A DNA stretch of 20,000 nt from an uncultured virus (IMG/VR IMGVR_UViG_2937164673_000001). Taxonomy: Duplodnaviria; Heunggongvirae; Uroviricota; Caudoviricetes. This document shows positions 2,279 to 19,415 of this stretch, piece by piece. The notes under the pieces were generated by a model. It saw nothing but the letters and a program-made list of their open reading frames with translations. It was not told the DNA's origin and searched no databases. Position 1 is the stretch's first letter. Every line of letters starts with the position of its first letter. The DNA is taken from IMG/VR virus record IMGVR_UViG_2937164673_000001; one strand, written 5' to 3'. Position numbers and translations under genes: made by a program.

Positions 2279-2542
2279 ATGATTAAGGTAAAAATTTATA
2301 CAAAAGAAAATTGCCCGGCTTGCATGATGACTAAGAAGTTGTTTAATAAGCTGGGCGTAGATTATAAAGAGGTAACAGTTCTTCAAGATAGTCCAATGTT
2401 AGAAGTTTTACGTGAACAGGGGTGGCACAGTTTTCCCGTAGTAGAATGGCTAGACGAAGAAGGCGTAGGAGACGCTTGGTCAGGATTTAACCCAGATAAT
2501 ATTAAGGAGGTAGCTAGTTATTATGGACAAAGCATTGATTAA
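2279..2542 (+). CDS. nrdH: NrdH-like glutaredoxin
   Basis: IYTKENCPACMMTK (CxxC), SFPVV and WSGFNPD motifs. ATG at 2279. Confidence 0.85.
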   Translation: MIKVKIYTKENCPACMMTKKLFNKLGVDYKEVTVLQDSPMLEVLREQGWHSFPVVEWLDEEGVGDAWSGFNPDNIKEVASYYGQSID

Positions 2543-2765
2543 ATTGTTTGAAAAAGAAATGTTTAACAAAGAGAATAGTGAAGATGGGTTTCGTAACTTC
2601 GTTCTTGATTACTATAAAAAACATTCAAAGGATACGTTTGAATATCCTAAAGATCGTTACGAACTTTTAACAAAGGGTGATCCTAAAGCGCAATGGACTA
2701 TGGAAGATATTGTTGTATATTACTTATCTAATAGCGATCAAAAAGGTAAAGTAACTTTTATTTGA
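2523..2765 (+). CDS. Hypothetical protein
   Basis: 80 aa ORF with SD AAGGAGG, overlapping the end of nrdH. Confidence 0.75.
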   Translation: MDKALIKLFEKEMFNKENSEDGFRNFVLDYYKKHSKDTFEYPKDRYELLTKGDPKAQWTMEDIVVYYLSNSDQKGKVTFI

Positions 2766-2806
2766 ACACAACAAAAATATTTTATATTAAATTGTAGGTA
2801 AATCAA

Positions 2807-2835
2807 TTGACAAATATTTTTGTTTGGGGTATTAT
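2807..2835 (+). promoter_or_regulatory. Strong sigma-A promoter for the RNA-gene island
   Basis: TTGACA (2807-2812), 17 bp spacer, TATTAT (2830-2835), AT-rich upstream. Confidence 0.85.
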
Positions 2836-2930
2836 AGATATCGTTGATGAGGAGCAACGCAGTTGCGACCCATTAATAAATCACACAGATCAAATGATCA
2901 CTTCAACATTTCAGGAGTAATCCTGATTAT

Positions 2931-3003
2931 GGACCTATAGTTTAACTGGATAGAACAGTAGTCTTCTAAACTACCAACCTTGGTTCGAGTCCAAGTGGGT
3001 CTA
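2931..3003 (+). tRNA. tRNA-Arg (UCU)
   Basis: GGACCTA/TGGGTCT acceptor, anticodon stem gtagt/actac with loop cTTCTaa, T-loop GGTTCGAGTCC. No encoded CCA. Confidence 0.9.
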
Positions 3004-3005
3004 TC

Positions 3006-3143
3006 GCGAAGAGTGGAAAGACAATAGTGCATTTTGGAAGTACACACTCCCTATATCTTTTAAGTTGATAATACAAATACACCTTTCTAATTTTTAATCA
3101 TCCATGTTTGTCTTTTACAGAGGTTCGACTCCTCTGCTTCGCA
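3006..3143 (+). ncRNA. tRNA-like RNA: acceptor stem + T arm with a ~105 nt insert replacing the D and anticodon arms
   Basis: GCGAAG/CTTCGC+A, T arm agagg-TTCGACT-cctct, inner stem gtggaaagacaa/ttgtcttttac. Confidence 0.7.
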
Positions 3144-3169
3144 TAGGGCAGAAATGCCCGAAATTATTA

Positions 3170-3263
3170 AACATTTATGTGCTGTGTTTGATAATCGAAA
3201 ATTGTTATTTTTTTATCACCTTCTTTTTGTTAACACACTGCGGTTCGATTCCGTTTTGTGTTA
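3170..3263 (+). ncRNA. Second tRNA-like RNA with an inserted stem-loop (weak acceptor stem)
   Basis: T arm gcgg-TTCGATT-ccgt, aacat/gtgtt acceptor-like pairing, inner stem tgtgtttgataa/ttgttaacaca. Confidence 0.5.
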
Positions 3264-3371
3264 TTCCCAGCTAAGTGGTTGGGCTGGGGAACTCCTTTCA
3301 TGGTTAAGCACCTCCGAAATATGAAAGATTGGTTAGTCAGATAAGATATGTGTGATCTTATCTTGACAAGT

Positions 3372-3440
3372 TTCGGTATAGCTCAATGGTAGAGCAACAT
3401 TATGTAGTGTAGATATGTGGTTCGATTCCCATTACCGAAA
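3372..3440 (+). ncRNA. tRNA-like RNA with collapsed anticodon loop
   Basis: Perfect TTCGGTA/TACCGAA acceptor and canonical D arm (gctc-aatggta-gagc). Anticodon arm acatt-ATGT-agtgt has only a 4 nt loop; T stem is bulged. Confidence 0.75.
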
Positions 3441-3592
3441 TTCCTAGAAATAGGTTGTTCCAAATGACGGAAAACGTTTGGAATGTAAAATCACCTAACG
3501 TATGTTCAATAGGTTATATTTTCCATATACCTTTACCTTTACATTTTTCAATTCGATCATTGTTATGTATTTGTTGAAATGCATAACAGGAT

Positions 3593-3675
3593 GCCTAGGT
3601 AGCGAAGTGGTTAAACGCTGCGGACTGTAAATCCGCCACCTTTTGGTTTCGGGGGTTCGAATCCCTCCCTGGGCA
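3593..3675 (+). tRNA. tRNA-Tyr (GUA)
   Basis: GCCTAGG/CCTGGGC acceptor, gcgga-ctGTAaa-tccgc anticodon arm, long variable arm, GGTTCGAATCC. Confidence 0.93.
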
Positions 3676-3711
3676 TTAAGAACTAATATGAAGAAAGGAG
3701 TAAGAGTGCAT

Positions 3712-4281
3712 ATGCCACTTAATGATGACTTAATTAGAGATATTCTGAAAAATGTTGCTATACATGGTGTAAAGGGGAATAACCTTACTAGCATCATAGC
3801 TGAACTTCCTGGATATTCAGAAAAGGCAATTTTGGAAACCCTTAACTGGATGGAAATAAATGATTTCATTGGTAAAACACAATTAGAAAACTACATTCTA
3901 TCTTATTATGGACGGTATGTGTTTGGAGTTATCGCCGATGATTCAGTTTGGGAATACGCAAAAAGCGAGTACACCAAACGAAATTGCAAAACATGGTCTT
4001 GGAGTTCTAAGGTTAGAATTGCCACTCAATACCTGAAAAAGTATGATCCTGAGGCTCCTGTAAAATTTGACTATTTGCCATATAAGAATGAGGAAAAAGG
4101 CACCTTATATTACTACAAAGATAAAGAGGGCAATAACATTCCTGCCTTTGGTGATTATAAGGGCGCATCGATTATGATTGACGACAAGAATGTTGATCGA
4201 GTTTTAGAGTTCTTTCCACAAGCTAAGAATAACTTATATGTGGTATATCAAGGTGTGGAATTCAAGATTAATAATGTTTAA
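3712..4281 (+). CDS. DUF2513-like protein with C-terminal extension
   Basis: SD AAAGGAG at ~3694-3700; start ATG 3712 or GTG 3706. LNDDLIRDIL...LSYYG...IADDSVWEYAK resembles the DUF2513 pattern as recalled. Confidence 0.6.
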   Translation: MPLNDDLIRDILKNVAIHGVKGNNLTSIIAELPGYSEKAILETLNWMEINDFIGKTQLENYILSYYGRYVFGVIADDSVWEYAKSEYTKRNCKTWSWSSKVRIATQYLKKYDPEAPVKFDYLPYKNEEKGTLYYYKDKEGNNIPAFGDYKGASIMIDDKNVDRVLEFFPQAKNNLYVVYQGVEFKINNV

Positions 4282-4294
4282 CCATTTAATGGTG

Positions 4295-4700
4295 AGAAGT
4301 AGGGTAGGACAGCAGGCGACCTAAGCCGCACGAAACTGTCCATGTTGCGGCAGGCAGTTTACTGAAAGTTCTTCTGCCAGTAAAATGATTCTTTTATAAA
4401 GTTTTTGCGTCTTTAAATTGCTGTTGTAACAGCGATAAGATAATAAACTTATTTATATAATCTGATTACGGCTCACGTAGGGCTTCGAAATACAGCATAA
4501 TTACCCACCTCGGTGTTCGTGTGAATACAAAAGAAATAGGTATGACAGATAAGAAAGAGGCTGTCTTGTTCAAGATTAATCAGATTAACGTGGAGCTTGA
4601 CTCCTTAATGGCTTGGGGCGAATTCGTCCTCGTGTTGATGTCTTTTGCTGACAAGTTTCAACCGTCACGTAAAAGCGGAAATGAAACGATACATGTATTA
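4295..4700 (+). ncRNA. Unassigned structured RNA(s): pseudoknot, long hairpin and multibranch domains
   Basis: ggacag/ctgtcc crossed by gccgca/tgcggc; 10 bp closing stem aatctgatta/taatcagatt (4459-4586); several more hairpins. Confidence 0.5.
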
Positions 4701-4708
4701 TGTTTGGA

Positions 4709-4763
4709 AGCCTTGTCTGATGGTGCCAGGAAGATTGATTGGGTTCGATCCCCAACAAGGCTA
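4709..4763 (+). ncRNA. Mini tRNA-like RNA (55 nt) lacking an anticodon arm
   Basis: Perfect AGCCTTG/CAAGGCT+A, D-like hairpin ctg-atggtgc-cag, T arm ttggg-TTCGATC-cccaa. Confidence 0.75.
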
Positions 4764-5018
4764 TTTCAGATAGTTCTTTATAGAATGGTCAGCTTAAGAT
4801 CGACTGAACTGTCTGAAAATGATTTGCCTAGTTATAGACCACATCTTCGCAATGCGAAGGTATCTACTAGAAATAGTAGTGATTAATCGCGGACAGAATT
4901 GCTAAGTTAATGTCCATCAAAAAGATATAAGCTCTAAGAGTAATCAGATTGATACTTAGCACAATCAACAAGCTCTTAACTTATCAGTTCACCATCTAAC
5001 GTTTCTGGGTGGATAACT
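4764..5018 (+). ncRNA. Unassigned structured RNA with an 8 nt loop-loop complement
   Basis: 13 bp stem tttcagatagttc/gaactgtctgaaa. Hairpin loop TGCTAAGT (4900-4907) is complementary to ACTTAGCA (4954-4961). Confidence 0.55.
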
Positions 5019-5020
5019 AT

Positions 5021-5092
5021 TGCCTTATCGTCTAATTGGTAGGACACGACTCTTTGGAAGTCGCAATGTTGGTTCGAGACCAGCTAAGGCAA
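5021..5092 (+). tRNA. tRNA-Gln (UUG)
   Basis: TGCCTTA/TAAGGCA acceptor, cgact-ctTTGga-agtcg anticodon arm, GGTTCGAGACC. Confidence 0.92.
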
Positions 5093-5094
5093 TT

Positions 5095-5212
5095 AACTTG
5101 ATAAATTATCCCTTCGCGGTGGCAAGGTTAGTGTCTCCACCTAAGTTTGCCGAGAATGGGCTGTTTACAGCGCACAAAGTGGAGTCGGTGCCATTCGGTA
5201 ATTTATCAAGTT
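5095..5212 (+). ncRNA. Unassigned ~118 nt structured RNA with kissing loops
   Basis: 16 bp closing stem aacttgataaattatc/ggtaatttatcaagtt encloses two arms whose loops carry CTCCAC (5135-5140) and GTGGAG (5179-5184). Confidence 0.6.
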
Positions 5213-5404
5213 TTGGTTCTAGTGTGCCGTCGCTAGAATTGTATTTCACTTAACGGAGCGGAGAGTAAATCCAGTATGTCCTTGGAAACATAGACTGTAA
5301 AACTGGTGTCTCGAAGTCAACACGAGGGTAGAATACCTGGTATTGTTGGCATGTGATAGCAGCGGGGTGTAGCTGCGAATATAAATAAATCACCTCTTTA
5401 TTAC

Positions 5405-5481
5405 ACTCCAGTAACTCAGTCAGGTTAGAGTGCACAACTTATAATTGTGAGGTCGCTTTGGTTCAAATCCAGCCTGGAGTA
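5405..5481 (+). tRNA. tRNA-Ile (UAU) with a 2 nt bulge in the T stem
   Basis: ACTCCAG/CTGGAGT acceptor, cacaa-ctTATaa-ttgtg anticodon arm, gc(tt)tgg-TTCAAAT-ccagc. Confidence 0.85.
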
Positions 5482-5494
5482 TTGCCATTATGGC

Positions 5495-5900
5495 AAAGAA
5501 CAATCCCTTTGCATTAAAGGTTACGACCGATCGCAGAGGTTTTATCGAGGGGTTATCACATCCCACTTGCTGACCTGAACAGTTTAATAAAATCAGGATT
5601 TTATAAAAGACAGGTACAATATTCGCTGACGGAACGTAGGCATGTGCGGAATCCGTGAGTGGGGCTAGGCTACGCCAACTCTCTATCGGTAGACAGTAGC
5701 AATTATGTCGGAGATAGGAATGAGTGATGTTAAGGTCTTGAAATGAGTCTCCCTTAACAAGAACATATCAAAACATTCAGCGAGTAACGACAGCGCCCCT
5801 TAGCAGGGATAAGGACTATGCCCATCCTATGAAGCTAGTAGGAATAAATGTGGAATAAGGCAAAAGCTGTTAGGGGTTCCACCAGAATAAATATTTTGAT
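5495..5900 (+). ncRNA. ROOL-like large structured RNA (compact, ~400 nt)
   Basis: Blocks I recall from ROOL RNAs occur in order: AACAATCC..TTGCA, TCTTGAAATGAG, ATATCAAAA, GAGTAACnACAGC, GAATAAATG..ATAAGGCAAAAGCTG..GGGTTC..AGAATA. Phage tRNA-cluster context is typical of ROOL. Boundaries approximate. Confidence 0.72.
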
Positions 5901-5908
5901 ATATAAGT

Positions 5909-5982
5909 AACACATTAGCTCAGCTAGGTAGAGCACTTACCGAAATGGTAAGAGGTCACAGGTTCAAATCCTGTATGTGTTA
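5909..5982 (+). ncRNA. Full-length tRNA-like RNA with non-canonical anticodon loop (nominal AAA)
   Basis: All four stems perfect (AACACAT/ATGTGTT, gctc/gagc, cttac/gtaag, acagg/cctgt). The loop CGAAATG lacks U33 and purine 37, and C32-G38 can pair. Confidence 0.8.
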
Positions 5983-6044
5983 TAGACTTCATTAAGAAGT
6001 CGATTTGAGTTATTATTTGGAGTTATGATTTAAAGCTCTATTCT

Positions 6045-6419
6045 GGGGTAGTTTATGGATTCGACAGTCAGACAAAGCCCTAAATACGACTTACGGAAGA
6101 TAACGCCGAAATACTTTCATTTAAATATAAAAGCAAATAACCATAGAGTTACAGCTTTAGCTGCCTAGCTTATAGGCACTTGGTTAATATCTTGATACCA
6201 GATAAGGATATTAACTATCATATTTCACCCCTCTGGTCTTAGTTCATGATTTGCTAGTTTGAGTGTGACTAAGTATTAAAACTAGCTAGACTAGGTAGTT
6301 TTTGGAAAATTACTATGTAACGTTCCCTAAGTCGAAAATTTAGAACATAGTCCTATTAAGTCTAAAATGTATTTGGAAACTGGTTTGGTTGGACACGGGT
6401 TCGACTCCCGTCTACTCCA
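6045..6419 (+). ncRNA. ssrA: tmRNA; tag (A)ANNHRVTALAA
   Basis: GGGGTAG...GGATTCGAC 5' end and GGGTTCGACTCCC-GT-CTACTCC-A 3' end with G3:U70. Tag reading frame 6133-6168 ends ALAA-TAG. Confidence 0.93.
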
Positions 6420-6421
6420 TA

Positions 6422-6549
6422 TTCACAACTCTTTCAGGTTGCGGGTTCGAGTCCCGTCTCCGGCACGTGATACATGGTCACAATAGTTGCCAGAGTAGCT
6501 CAATCCTATACTGCTAAAAGGTATACGGCAGAGCGGTCAGACTTGTGAA
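6422..6549 (+). ncRNA. Circularly permuted tRNA-like RNA (T arm and 3' acceptor strand precede 5' acceptor strand and D arm)
   Basis: AGGTT-gcggg-TTCGAGT-cccgt-CTCCGGC-A (6436-6465), 23 nt linker, GCCAGAG-TA-GCTC...GAGC (6489-6534). Closed by ttcacaa/ttgtgaa. Confidence 0.75.
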
Positions 6550-6766
6550 GAAGACGTGTATCCGTCTATAAATGGAAACGTGGCATCTAAGGTTACACCA
6601 CCGTTAATATGTAGCTGGAAGAGGGTAGCTCCCTCATTTGTTAGAAATTTCTTTTAGAAAACCATGGCGATTTAGGTAAACGTAGAACCTAGCTCCTATC
6701 CGTGTAATAAATTTGTGAGCTTAAAACAAGATCTTATGGAATGTTGGTGAGTGTACAAAGCCGACA

Positions 6767-6826
6767 GAGGTAGTAGTTCAATTGGTAGATCATGCTAGGA
6801 TGTGGGTTCGATTCCCATCTACCTCA
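6767..6826 (+). ncRNA. Mini tRNA-like RNA (60 nt) lacking an anticodon arm
   Basis: Perfect GAGGTAG/CTACCTC+A, D arm gttc-aattggta-gatc, 10 nt connector, T arm gtggg-TTCGATT-cccat. Confidence 0.8.
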
Positions 6827-6880
6827 TAGCTATAATTAGCGAAATTCTTTATTACGTATTTACAAACGAGACATACAAAT

Positions 6881-6925
6881 AAAGCGTCACTTTGCGAGAT
6901 TGGTTAGAATCTGGTGACGCTTTTT
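6881..6925 (+). terminator. Intrinsic terminator closing the RNA island
   Basis: aaagcgtcac / gtgacgcttt stem followed by a T-run. Confidence 0.7.
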
Positions 6926-6952
6926 GTATACAAAAATTTAAGAGGAGGAAAG

Positions 6953-7903
6953 ATGGCCGTGGAATTAACTTATCGTAAATTTCCTAAGATTTACCGTTTA
7001 GAGCAAGAAGAGGCAAACTCGAAGCATGAAGGAGTAGCCAGTCTTTTAGAACAGAATAAAGCAGGTAACTACTATGTTGCTACTGAAAAGATTGATGGTG
7101 CTAATAGTTGTATAGAGGTTCTTAAAAGGGACGGAAAAATTGACTTTGCAATTTATTCACATCGTCAAAGACTTAGTGAGGACAATACTTTGCGAGGCTT
7201 TTACGAATACGCACAAGAGGTCTTAATTCCAAAGTTAATGGAATTCTATAAGAATATTGACGAGGCACATGACTATCTCTATGGGGAATGGCTGGTATCT
7301 CATCGAGTTGAATATCAACAAAAAATGTACAACCATTGGTATTTCTTTAGTTTTTATGATGATCTATTCGGTCATGAATATAATTTCTTTGAACGTACTG
7401 CTTTTGCCGATCGAGTAGGGTTAAGACAGCCGAATGTAGTTAGTATGGCAAACTACACTTTAACCAAAGAAGATATCAAGACGATGGTTGGAAGATCAAT
7501 GATTACAAAGGAACCAGATCATGGTGAAGGAATAGTTATCGAATGTGATGGCGTTCGAGCAAAGGTAGTGTCTGATAAGTTTAAAGAAACTCGAAAGCAA
7601 AAGAAACCACAGCCATCTCAGACCGAAAGCGAGAAGTTCATTGATGAGACAATTACGGAAGCTCGCATTACCAAAATGATTGAAAAGTTTAAAGATGAAA
7701 ATCTTTTACCAGATGTAATTGATTTTGAACATTTTGGTGATATTGCTAGACCACTAGCCAATGCGTTGTGGAATGATGTCATTGAAGAAGAAGGCAGCAA
7801 TGCACCAGAATTGTTTGATGTGAAGAAGGCACGCAAACGATTAAATAAGATTATCTCAAAATATGTCCGAGAATTAATTGAAAATGAAATGATGAGTGTT
7901 TAA
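6953..7903 (+). CDS. ATP-dependent RNA ligase, Rnl2-like family
   Basis: Nucleotidyltransferase motifs: TEKIDGAN (I), LYGEW (III), GEGIVI (IV), AKVVSDKFKE (V). SD GAGGAGG before ATG 6953. Confidence 0.85.
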   Translation: MAVELTYRKFPKIYRLEQEEANSKHEGVASLLEQNKAGNYYVATEKIDGANSCIEVLKRDGKIDFAIYSHRQRLSEDNTLRGFYEYAQEVLIPKLMEFYKNIDEAHDYLYGEWLVSHRVEYQQKMYNHWYFFSFYDDLFGHEYNFFERTAFADRVGLRQPNVVSMANYTLTKEDIKTMVGRSMITKEPDHGEGIVIECDGVRAKVVSDKFKETRKQKKPQPSQTESEKFIDETITEARITKMIEKFKDENLLPDVIDFEHFGDIARPLANALWNDVIEEEGSNAPELFDVKKARKRLNKIISKYVRELIENEMMSV

Positions 7904-19220: not shown

Positions 19221-19309
19221 TATGCACAAAATGTGAAAATAAAGGTTAGCAATGCGATAATAAATGTCGCAAAGGCCAACATTAACATAAGTGCTTGGTA
19301 AGCGCTCAT
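19220..19309 (-). CDS. Putative holin-like type I toxin (29 aa; not in the ORF track)
   Basis: MSAYQALMLMLAFATFIIALLTFIFTFCA fits the MS..AL.LM.AF..F...LL family pattern. SD GAAAGGA; TGATATAAT at 19400-19408 (- strand). Confidence 0.8.
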   Translation of the reverse strand: MSAYQALMLMLAFATFIIALLTFIFTFCA

Positions 19310-19415
19310 GTGCCGATAATCCTTTCATAATGGTGAAGTCCATATGAACCACCTCCAGTCAGGAATCGGCCACCGTCCTTAAAACTTGCCTGCTCTAGTA
19401 TTATATCATACAGAT

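What the first reader, a model, noticed from the sequence alone, without database searches (positions are those of the whole stretch)
3006..3263. tRNA-scaffolded RNAs displaying anti-Shine-Dalgarno loops
Seen: two tandem elements have an acceptor-like stem and T arm, but a stem with a large U-rich loop replaces the D and anticodon arms. The loops carry CACTCCCT, CACCTTTCT and ATCACCTTCT. One loop's reverse complement reads like a translation start region (..AGGGAGTGTGTACTTCCAAAATG). Established: P1 C4 and P4 CI antisense RNAs are matured by RNase P, and tRNA scaffolds stabilise cargo RNA. Inference: these are natural tRNA-scaffolded antisense RNAs that silence ribosome-binding sites of host, defence or competing-element genes.
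Basis: partly seen in the sequence, partly recalled or inferred. Interest (0 to 1): 0.82.

Follow-up and report, generated by a model that had tools for sequence, protein, structure and literature searches.

The report
Anticodon-less tRNA look-alikes in megaplasmid
Two conserved RNA-like elements in the tRNA gene row of a phage-like Limosilactobacillus reuteri megaplasmid keep the top half of a tRNA but have no anticodon; they are probably cut out like tRNAs, and the idea that they silence ribosome-binding sites did not pass its own test.

Summary
The window is part of a phage-like ~130-140 kb Limosilactobacillus reuteri megaplasmid. It holds a 4-kb island of tRNAs, a tmRNA and an RNA ligase gene.

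Element 1 (3006-3143) is as described. It has a 6-bp acceptor stem, a canonical T arm, two invariant G, and a 9-bp stem closing an 83-nt A+U-rich interior. It starts 2 nt after tRNA-Arg. A divergent variant keeps this shape with a different, still complementary long stem.

Element 2 (3144-3263) is built differently: two hairpins, a U-rich linker and a 33-nt acceptor/T-arm minihelix.

All three quoted motifs are present, but the anti-Shine-Dalgarno reading is not supported:
- Element 1's interior matches ribosome-binding sites no better than shuffles.
- ATCACCTTCT occurs in only 2 of 14 homologs.
- The best target match is not conserved.
- The minus-strand ORF is not conserved.

Most likely these are tRNA-derived, non-decoding RNAs cut from the tRNA transcript by RNase P and RNase Z, as T4 RNAC/RNAD are thought to be. 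At least three more such modules lie in the island.

A much better, invariant anti-SD loop (GCACCTCC, 3308-3315) lies just outside the finding.

This scan has noted anticodon-less tRNA look-alikes in other phages before.

The parts
2807..2835 (+). Promoter-like site (TTGACA, 17 nt, TATTAT) upstream of tRNA-Arg; likely start of the transcript that carries both elements
   Evidence: 11 of 12 consensus positions, the best site in 2500-7000. This is a consensus match only.
2931..3003 (+). tRNA-Arg(UCU). Its 3' end lies 2 nt before element 1.
   Evidence: ARAGORN; Rfam 62.4 bits.
3006..3143 (+). Element 1, a 138-nt tRNA-like RNA without D or anticodon arm. Acceptor 3006-3011 with 3137-3142; invariant GG 3015-3016; long stem 3016-3024 with 3108-3116; interior 3025-3107; T arm 3118-3136; discriminator A3143.
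   Evidence: fold; 0 of 200 shuffles as stable. (scaffold invariant in 15 copies). (the L009 variant has the same architecture with a different complementary long stem).
3045..3052 (+). Motif CACTCCCT in the interior of element 1
   Evidence: ACTCCCT is invariant in 14 of 14 window-type copies. RBS-complementarity lies only at the 4.7th percentile of all 12-mers.
3081..3094 (+). It is the only interior stretch kept letter for letter between the window-type and the L009-type element 1.
   Evidence: RBS-complementarity at the 5.0th percentile.
3144..3230 (+). 5' part of element 2: hairpin A (3146-3150 with 3155-3159), hairpin B (3163-3174 with 3184-3195) and a U-rich linker (3196-3230) holding ATCACCTTCT at 3215-3224
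   Evidence: The other allele of hairpin A refolds into its own 7-bp hairpin.
3231..3263 (+). Acceptor/T-arm minihelix of element 2: 7 bp, an internal mismatch, a 4-bp T stem and loop UUCGAUU
   Evidence: In one search, helix 3 is paired in 97% of cells and changes only to G-U. In one search (repeat D2) it is 72% identical, trailer included, to the 3' part of the odd tRNA at 3416-3447.

Best explanation
Both elements are tRNA-derived RNAs that cannot decode. They sit in a tRNA/tmRNA operon of a phage-like L. reuteri megaplasmid.

Proposed mechanism:
1. They are transcribed with tRNA-Arg from the promoter-like site at 2807-2835.
2. The stacked acceptor and T-arm helices, with the T loop, are the part of a tRNA that RNase P, RNase Z and the CCA-adding enzyme recognise. 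In element 1 the two invariant G (3015-3016) may stand in for the D loop.
3. Element 1 is therefore released as a stable ~138-nt RNA. Its 83-nt A+U-rich interior is held on a 9-bp arm.
4. The minihelix of element 2 serves as a cutting mark. It separates the hairpin-bearing leader (3144-3230) from the next RNA (3264-3371).

What is shown: the architecture, its conservation, its position, and its presence in RNA-library assemblies.

What is inferred: co-transcription, the cuts, the stability, and any role of the interior.

What the interior of element 1 does is unknown. My best guess is binding of a protein or another RNA through the conserved ACCUUUCUAAUUUU, not general ribosome-binding-site silencing.
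For: Architecture:
- It is beyond chance: 0 of 200 shuffles fold as well for element 1 or for element 2.
- The T-loop word occurs 12 times, all on the + strand, against 2.1 expected.
- Element 1 begins 2 nt after tRNA-Arg, and element 2 begins right after the discriminator of element 1.

Conservation:
- The scaffold letters are identical in 15 of 15 copies, including G10 and G11.
- 94.8% of cells (element 1) and 94.2% (element 2) form standard pairs, against 35-54% when the 3' partners are slid by 1-3 columns.
- The divergent L009 copy swaps the long stem GAAAGACAA/UUGUCUUUU for AAGAAAGAUU/AAUCUUUCUU and keeps the same three-helix fold.
- The second allele of hairpin A (4 of 14 copies) refolds as a hairpin.

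The same theme elsewhere in the island:
- 4709-4763 is a 55-nt acceptor plus T arm, with two compensatory pairs in the G001 copy.
- The orphan T arm at 6441-6465 has a compensatory pair.
- 6767-6826 is a 60-nt tRNA match too short for a full cloverleaf (by my reading it lacks the anticodon arm).

Expression and coding:
- In two RNA libraries of one mouse-gut sample, assembled contigs cover 2889-3404 at word depths 4.9-45.9. They cover none of the flanking coding DNA (2200-2865, 3680-4400). Two probable-DNA runs do cover 2200-2939.
- No reading frame is conserved on either strand.

Precedent:
- RNase P processes tmRNA and the phage C4 antisense RNA (PMC11143913, passages read).
Against: - No transcript ends were seen. 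The RNA evidence is assembled contigs from one sample, and such libraries can contain DNA.
- Column-wise covariation is nil in the close family: 0 of 35 pairs (element 1) and 0 of 28 pairs (element 2) change on both sides. Structural support therefore rests on one divergent copy and one hairpin allele.
- 150 of the 155 nt of the L009 copy fold no better than shuffles (z -0.61, 46 of 200). The L002 copy is only moderately better (9 of 200).
- The acceptor stem of element 1 has 6 pairs plus an A-G mismatch. The T stem of element 2 has 4 pairs plus a U-U mismatch.
- The family is confined to one plasmid lineage, so conservation may partly reflect recent common descent.
- The tested function is unsupported and no other function was tested.
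Confidence: 0.6

Rival explanations
1. One reading: the tRNA frame stabilises and displays pyrimidine-rich loops, which pair with Shine-Dalgarno regions of host, defence or rival-element mRNAs and block translation.
For: - The motifs are predicted to be mostly unpaired (0.67-0.90).
- UCCC-type and CU-rich loops are how several Firmicute sRNAs bind ribosome-binding sites (recalled, not checked here).
- ACTCCCT is invariant in 14 of 14 copies.
- ACCTTTCTAATTTT survives in the divergent L009 copy.
- On LN906635.1, the interior of that plasmid's own element 1 has a 13-nt perfect complement to the start region of the annotated CDS that begins at record position 113341. Only 4 of 200 shuffles reach 13 nt.
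- ATCACCTTCT beats 97 of 100 shuffles.
Against: - Element 1's interior is no better than composition-matched shuffles against 24 window starts (63 of 100 as good). The same holds against 159 plasmid starts (25, 17, 65 and 73 of 100 on four measures).
- The common allele of the element 2 linker also fails (11-21 of 100).
- ATCACCTTCT is in 2 of 14 homologs.
- The 13-nt target is perfect only in that one plasmid. 4 of 6 other records carry a mismatch with no compensating change in the RNA, and 2 of 6 lack the site.
- None of the three motifs holds the CCUCC core of the host 16S tail (read).
- The host chromosome and rival phages were not screened, so a specific target is not excluded.
Confidence: 0.12
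2. Decaying leftovers: tRNA genes or duplicated tRNA 3' halves broken by insertions and homing-endonuclease traffic. They are kept only because the lineage is young, and they have no function of their own.
For: - The family is narrow. The region is found in 1 of 401 Lactobacillaceae species genomes. The exact 22-mer has 1 locus in genome contigs and 6 in the metagenome collection; the two exact-pattern scans of viral contigs gave 5 and 6 loci.
- No two-sided covariation is seen in the close family.
- Element 2's minihelix with its trailer is a 72% copy of the 3' end of the neighbouring odd tRNA.
- Indels are tolerated in the element 2 linker (13 nt).
- An HNH endonuclease gene sits between tRNA-Arg and element 1 in one relative.
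- Other strains show an insertion and a deletion joint at 3177.
- tRNA gene fragments are common by-products of integration (PMC9897764, abstract only).
Against: - Both acceptor strands of element 1 are intact and identical in 15 of 15 copies, although they lie 130 nt apart.
- The L009 copy has re-made the long stem with different letters.
- The noncoding stretch 3006-3590 is at least as conserved as the neighbouring tRNA-Arg, which exists as two very different alleles.
- The region is present in RNA-library contigs at higher depth than its flanks.
Confidence: 0.18
3. Decoys: the anticodon-less tRNA tops soak up a host or rival factor that recognises the acceptor/T-arm half of tRNAs. Candidates are a tRNA-targeting toxin or defence nuclease, SmpB, or a processing enzyme.
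For: - The island also holds odd tRNAs, its own tmRNA and an RNA ligase gene (6914-7903). That is the gene set expected of an element contending with tRNA damage.
- At least five non-decoding tRNA tops lie in 4 kb.
- A phage RNA that is little more than the tRNA-like domain of tmRNA is on record (mycobacteriophage DS6A), and a similar molecule strongly inhibits tmRNA, perhaps by titrating SmpB (PMC4131195, passage read).
Against: - Nothing here tests binding.
- Element 1 has G3-C70, not the G3-U70 of tmRNA and tRNA-Ala.
- No partner gene is evident beside it.
Confidence: 0.1

Closest known systems
Phage T4 RNAC and RNAD (species 1 and 2 RNAs)
   Same: Small RNAs of unknown role transcribed from a phage tRNA gene region (PMC3014915 and PMC9697503, passages read). 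That they have tRNA-like ends and are matured with the tRNAs is my recollection and was not checked here.
   Different: No sequence relation was tested. The host is Gram-positive and the element is a plasmid-like phage relative. Here there are several such modules, of different builds.
tRNA-like domain of tmRNA, including the domain-only form of mycobacteriophage DS6A
   Same: Acceptor stem plus T arm, no anticodon arm, and a long helix leading to an inserted domain. A domain-only phage form exists, and a similar molecule inhibits tmRNA (PMC4131195, passages read).
   Different: G3-C70 instead of G3-U70. No tag reading frame or pseudoknots were seen. Not called by ARAGORN or by the Rfam tmRNA model, whereas the island's real tmRNA at 6045-6419 is.
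   Same: A phage regulatory RNA whose precursor is cut by RNase P (PMC11143913, passage and reference list read).
   Different: No Rfam family of any kind matched the elements at E up to 10. No conserved target was found. C4 is not embedded in a tRNA frame, as far as I recall.
tRNA punctuation and tRNA-like cutting marks (mitochondrial transcripts, MALAT1 mascRNA)
   Same: tRNA-shaped modules that serve mainly to direct RNase P and RNase Z cuts between other RNAs. This fits the minihelix of element 2 (recalled knowledge).
   Different: Those systems are eukaryotic or organellar. Cutting was not shown here.
Engineered tRNA scaffolds for recombinant RNA
   Different: The engineered scaffold keeps the D arm and replaces only the anticodon stem-loop. 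Element 1 has no D arm.

Membership tests
tRNA (Rfam RF00005) | Acceptor stem closed by the 5' and 3' ends | tested here: met
   Element 1: 6 Watson-Crick pairs plus an A-G mismatch. Element 2: 7 pairs, but as a hairpin.
tRNA (Rfam RF00005) | T arm with a UUCRANY loop | tested here: met
   UUCGACU and UUCGAUU.
tRNA (Rfam RF00005) | D arm and an anticodon arm with a 7-nt loop | tested here: not met
   Neither is present in any fold. ARAGORN makes no call at default settings, even with introns of 0-150 nt allowed. At an 80% threshold it makes calls with inconsistent anticodons (agt in the window, tcc in L009).
tRNA (Rfam RF00005) | Score at or above the family threshold | tested here: not met
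   No RF00005 match in 3006-3263, even at E up to 10.
tmRNA (RF00023), or its tRNA-like domain alone | G3-U70 alanine identity pair | tested here: not met
   G3008 pairs with C3140.
tmRNA (RF00023), or its tRNA-like domain alone | Tag reading frame, pseudoknots and a model match | tested here: not met
   No call by ARAGORN or Rfam at the elements. The true tmRNA is found at 6045-6419.
RNase P-matured phage antisense RNA (C4/CI type) | Conserved complementarity to a target translation start | tested here: not met
   No enrichment over shuffles. The best site is not conserved. Only plasmid genes were screened.
RNase P-matured phage antisense RNA (C4/CI type) | Cleavage of the precursor by RNase P | not testable with these tools
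   Only contigs of RNA libraries were available, and they show no ends.
Stable RNAs of phage tRNA clusters (T4 RNAC/RNAD kind) | Encoded within, and on the strand of, a phage-type tRNA cluster | tested here: met
   Phage genes on the replicon are shown.
Stable RNAs of phage tRNA clusters (T4 RNAC/RNAD kind) | Accumulates as a discrete stable RNA | tested here: inconclusive
   RNA-library contigs cover 2889-3404 but not the flanks. This is one sample, with no ends.
Bacterial Y RNA-like YrlA (RF02553) | Model match, with the ends forming the Ro-binding stem and the tRNA-like part distal | tested here: not met
   No match at the elements. The only weak hit (20.7 bits against a threshold of 69) is at 6412-6564. 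Here the ends form the acceptor stem.

The most novel reading that the evidence does not exclude
The 4-kb island is a toolkit of at least five non-decoding tRNA tops. The megaplasmid uses them in two ways. As frames and cutting marks, they turn one tRNA-type transcript into a set of stable small RNAs. These include element 1, with its conserved ACCUUUCUAAUUUU, and the tRNA-flanked 108-nt RNA (3264-3371), whose hairpin loop shows a perfect, invariant anti-Shine-Dalgarno GCACCUCC. As decoys, they engage host factors that recognise the tRNA elbow. That would make a natural tRNA-punctuated regulatory RNA operon in a Gram-positive phage-plasmid.
Probability: 0.2. Interest if true: 0.75.

Novelty: new variant of a known kind. 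Interest (0 to 1): 0.5.

Why it matters
Phage and plasmid tRNA clusters are usually annotated only for what tRNA finders call. Here about a third of a 4-kb tRNA island is conserved, structured and probably expressed RNA that no tool names.

If these modules are processed and stable, they extend the old, unexplained case of T4 RNAC/RNAD to Gram-positive phage-like plasmids of a gut commensal that is also used as a probiotic. They also offer a tractable system: ATCC 53608 carries the 138.5-kb plasmid (PMC4667477, passages read). That system could answer what non-decoding tRNA look-alikes do, whether cutting marks, decoys or regulators.

The ribosome-binding-site silencing idea is not supported for these two elements.

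Tried and rejected
**Minus-strand gene behind AGGGAG...ATG.** The spacing is 14 nt. The frame is 44 aa in the window but 10-22 aa in 11 of 13 other copies, and it runs antisense through tRNA-Arg. Rejected.

**Plus-strand ORFs.** The frame 3104-3274 is 56 aa here and 4-34 aa in 7 other copies. Rejected. The overlapping ORF 3154-3324 was not checked in the relatives.

**Intron-containing tRNA.** ARAGORN with introns of 0-150 nt makes no call at default settings. Relaxed calls disagree between variants and overlap tRNA-Arg. Rejected.

**Known RNA family.** Rfam at gathering thresholds and at E up to 10 gives only two chance-level overlaps, snoZ266 (E 6.3) and rpsL_pseudo (E 8.2).

**Overall CACCT enrichment.** 31 found against 25.9 +/- 5.0 expected; 32 of 200 shuffles reach 31. 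No enrichment in the window as a whole. 4 of the 12 plus-strand copies fall in 3080-3496, but that is a post-hoc count.

**A specific target.** The 13-nt complement at the start of the LN906635.1 CDS beginning at 113341 is not conserved.

**Wider relatives.**
- blastn against 50,697 phage records found only tRNA-Arg matches, in 5 records. Megablast of the whole window found none.
- In 401 Lactobacillaceae genomes only G001 holds the region.
- A motif-plus-T-loop scan of viral contigs gave one unrelated phage (L029), where the motif is probably a chance match.

**Covariation counts.** They gave no two-sided changes. The alignment also puts the second hairpin A allele out of register.

**Sequencing runs.** All 4 runs laid were contigs, so no ends, strand or levels could be read. 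Parts without cover say nothing.

**Literature.** Five full-text searches found no description of these elements. PMC4667477 lists only tRNA genes on the plasmid. This is not proof that none exists.

**Not done.** No covariance model was built, and the host chromosome was not screened for targets.

Full report
**Where the window lies**

The window matches three Limosilactobacillus reuteri plasmids of 129-139 kb at 89-94% identity over 15-41% of its length. It matches no record of the phage collection.

The sister plasmid LN906635.1 (138,515 bp, strain ATCC 53608) carries two kinds of genes:
- plasmid genes: RepA and ParA;
- phage-type genes: structural, tail, holin, endolysin, primase, helicase, DNA polymerase and ligase.

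Its authors call it a megaplasmid with an incomplete prophage and extra tRNA genes (PMC4667477, passages read).

In the window, PnuC, glutaredoxin, RNA ligase, an HNH nuclease, a deoxynucleoside kinase and a nucleoside deoxyribosyltransferase flank a 4-kb RNA island. The island holds:
- tRNA-Arg(UCU);
- an odd tRNA (3372-3440) that Rfam calls but ARAGORN does not;
- tRNA-Tyr, Gln, Ile(UAU) and Phe(AAA);
- a tmRNA (6045-6419);
- a 60-nt tRNA match (6767-6826).

**Checking the observation**

Element 1 is real and is as described.
- It runs from 3006, two bases after tRNA-Arg, to the discriminator A3143.
- It folds into a 6-bp acceptor stem, a 9-bp stem closing an 83-nt interior (71% A+U), and a T arm with a canonical UUCGACU loop.
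- Its energy is -30.3 kcal/mol against -21.9 +/- 3.2 for shuffles; 0 of 200 shuffles fold as well.
- The T-loop word occurs 12 times in the window, always on the + strand, against 2.1 expected.

Element 2 is stable too (0 of 200 shuffles) but has another build. It has two hairpins, a U-rich linker, and a 33-nt hairpin that is an acceptor stem stacked on a T arm. Its U-rich stretch is not enclosed by an acceptor stem.

The three quoted motifs and the reverse-complement string are all present, and the motifs are predicted to be mostly unpaired. No tRNA, tmRNA or other Rfam model matches either element. ARAGORN finds no intron-containing tRNA at default settings.

**Relatives**

I collected 15 copies of element 1 and 14 of element 2. 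They come from the sister plasmids, IMG/VR records and metagenome contigs.

The family is narrow:
- 1 of 401 Lactobacillaceae species genomes has the region.
- The exact 22-mer has 1 locus among the species genomes of genome contigs, and that locus is LN906635.1 itself.

Fourteen copies of element 1 are 96% identical column by column. One copy, L009, has a 155-nt version with the following features:
- the same acceptor strands, GG and T arm;
- a long stem made of different but complementary letters;
- an interior of which only the 3' half is recognisably related;
- ACCTTTCTAATTTT kept letter for letter.

Column-wise covariation in the close family is nil: 0 of 35 and 0 of 28 pairs change on both sides. 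Against that, about 94% of cells are paired, compared with 35-54% for slid controls. Hairpin A of element 2 has a second allele in 4 of 14 copies, and it refolds as a hairpin.

**Testing the anti-Shine-Dalgarno reading**

I scored every 12-mer of both strands for mean duplex energy against 24 translation starts of the window.

| Motif | Percentile of all 12-mers |
|---|---|
| CACTCCCT | 4.7 |
| CACCTTTCT | 5.0 |
| ATCACCTTCT | 1.1 |

Shuffle controls:
- Shuffles of element 1's interior do as well in 63 of 100 cases.
- Against all 159 annotated starts of LN906635.1, using that plasmid's own elements, the interior of element 1 is matched or beaten by 17 to 73 of 100 dinucleotide shuffles on four measures.
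- The common allele of the element 2 linker is matched or beaten by 11 to 21 of 100.

ATCACCTTCT is in 2 of 14 copies; the other 12 have a 13-nt insertion and no such motif.

The best single hit is a 13-nt perfect complement of ACCTTTCTAATTT at one plasmid gene start, reached by 4 of 200 shuffles. In 4 of 6 other records the site carries a synonymous change that breaks it, with no compensating change in the RNA. In 2 of 6 the site is absent.

The host 16S tail reads CACCUCCUUUCUAAGG. None of the three motifs has its CCUCC core.

The minus-strand frame behind AGGGAG...ATG and the plus-strand frame 3104-3274 are not conserved.

A specific target on the host chromosome or on another phage was not screened and stays possible.

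**What it most likely is**

The acceptor/T-arm stack with its T loop is the part of a tRNA that RNase P, RNase Z and the CCA-adding enzyme read (established knowledge; RNase P substrates are listed in PMC11143913).

Several observations fit a transcript cut at tRNA-like marks:
- The two elements sit head to tail with tRNA-Arg, downstream of the best promoter-like site of the region.
- None of the island's tRNAs whose 3' flank I read encodes CCA. I checked tRNA-Arg and tRNA-Tyr.
- The same theme recurs in the island. There is a 55-nt acceptor plus T arm at 4709-4763 with two compensatory pairs in G001. An orphan T arm at 6441-6465 has a compensatory pair. The 60-nt tRNA at 6767-6826 is too short to hold a full cloverleaf; by my reading of its sequence it lacks the anticodon arm.
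- Element 2's minihelix and trailer are a 72% copy of the 3' end of the odd tRNA, which points to an origin by duplication.
- In two RNA libraries of one mouse-gut sample, contigs cover 2889-3404 but not the flanking genes, whereas probable-DNA runs cover the left flank. This is a weak hint of stable RNA, nothing more.

I therefore read the elements as tRNA-derived, non-decoding RNAs cut out of the tRNA transcript. Element 1 is a stable RNA with a displayed interior. Element 2 is mainly a cutting mark with a structured leader. Confidence is 0.6. The role of the interior is open.

**Comparison with known systems**

- The closest by place and kind are T4 RNAC and RNAD, small RNAs of unknown role from the T4 tRNA region.
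- The closest by topology is the tRNA-like domain of tmRNA, which exists alone in mycobacteriophage DS6A. Element 1 lacks G3-U70, a tag frame and any model match, so it is not a member.
- It is not a member of the C4/CI antisense kind either. No family match and no conserved target were found.

Earlier notes of this scan report anticodon-less tRNA look-alikes in tRNA clusters of at least eight other phages. These are unchecked leads. They suggest the phenomenon is recurrent rather than peculiar to this plasmid.

**Verdict**

This is a new variant of a known but unexplained kind. Interest is moderate.

Noticed in passing
window 3264-3371 (loop GCACCTCC at 3308-3315): A 108-nt, three-hairpin stretch lies between element 2's minihelix and the odd tRNA. 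The 17-nt loop of its middle hairpin shows a perfect anti-SD core. It ranks at the 0.03rd percentile of plus-strand 12-mers and beats 98-100 of 100 shuffles against 159 plasmid translation starts. The motif is identical in all 8 copies aligned.
   Followed up: partly
window 3372-3440: A tRNA-like gene found by Rfam (51.8 bits) but not by ARAGORN at default settings. By my reading of the sequence the anticodon loop is mis-sized; relaxed ARAGORN reports a 2-letter anticodon. The anticodon region differs among relatives while the rest is conserved.
   Followed up: partly
window 4709-4763: A 55-nt module: a 7-bp acceptor stem, a 23-nt connector and a T arm, with no D or anticodon arm. It lies inside a dubious 121-aa ORF that has no SD. 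The G001 copy has two compensatory acceptor pairs.
   Followed up: partly
window 6441-6465 and 6767-6826: An orphan T arm plus a 3' acceptor strand lies right after the tmRNA, with a compensatory T-stem change in LN906635.1. Further on is a 60-nt tRNA match (45.7 bits); by my reading of its sequence it keeps the acceptor, D and T arms and lacks the anticodon arm.
   Followed up: partly
window 3592-3676; L010, L008, L011, L012, L014: The 85-nt long-variable-arm tRNA is tRNA-Tyr(GTA) in the window, L009 and L013. At the same place in five relatives, ARAGORN reads the anticodon CCA (Trp) on an equally long body.
   Followed up: no
window 5405-5481 and 5908-5983: tRNA-Ile with anticodon UAU and tRNA-Phe with the unusual anticodon AAA.
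   Followed up: no
L013 1775-2467 (minus strand of the locus, the strand of the RNA island): A 230-aa ORF is inserted exactly between tRNA-Arg and element 1 in one relative. I read its sequence as HNH homing-endonuclease-like, but ran no family search on it.
   Followed up: partly
window 3177: The loop of hairpin B is a breakpoint in other strains. An RNA-library contig carries about 1.37 kb of other sequence there. Another run joins 3177 to the hairpin that precedes the downstream tRNA in relatives.
   Followed up: no
window 4282-4520, 5094-5404, 5482-5907, 6466-6766: Long stretches inside the island with no ORF of 75 aa or more and no credible Rfam match, even at E up to 10. They look G+C-richer by eye, and the 5001-6000 bin is the G+C-richest of the window (0.428). 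They may be further structured RNAs.
   Followed up: no
window 19240-19415 (minus strand): A match to the Listeria sRNA family rli28 (71.4 bits). The same DNA recurs on many L. reuteri plasmids, where a 'putative holin-like toxin' is annotated under it. This may be a small toxin with an antisense RNA.
   Followed up: no
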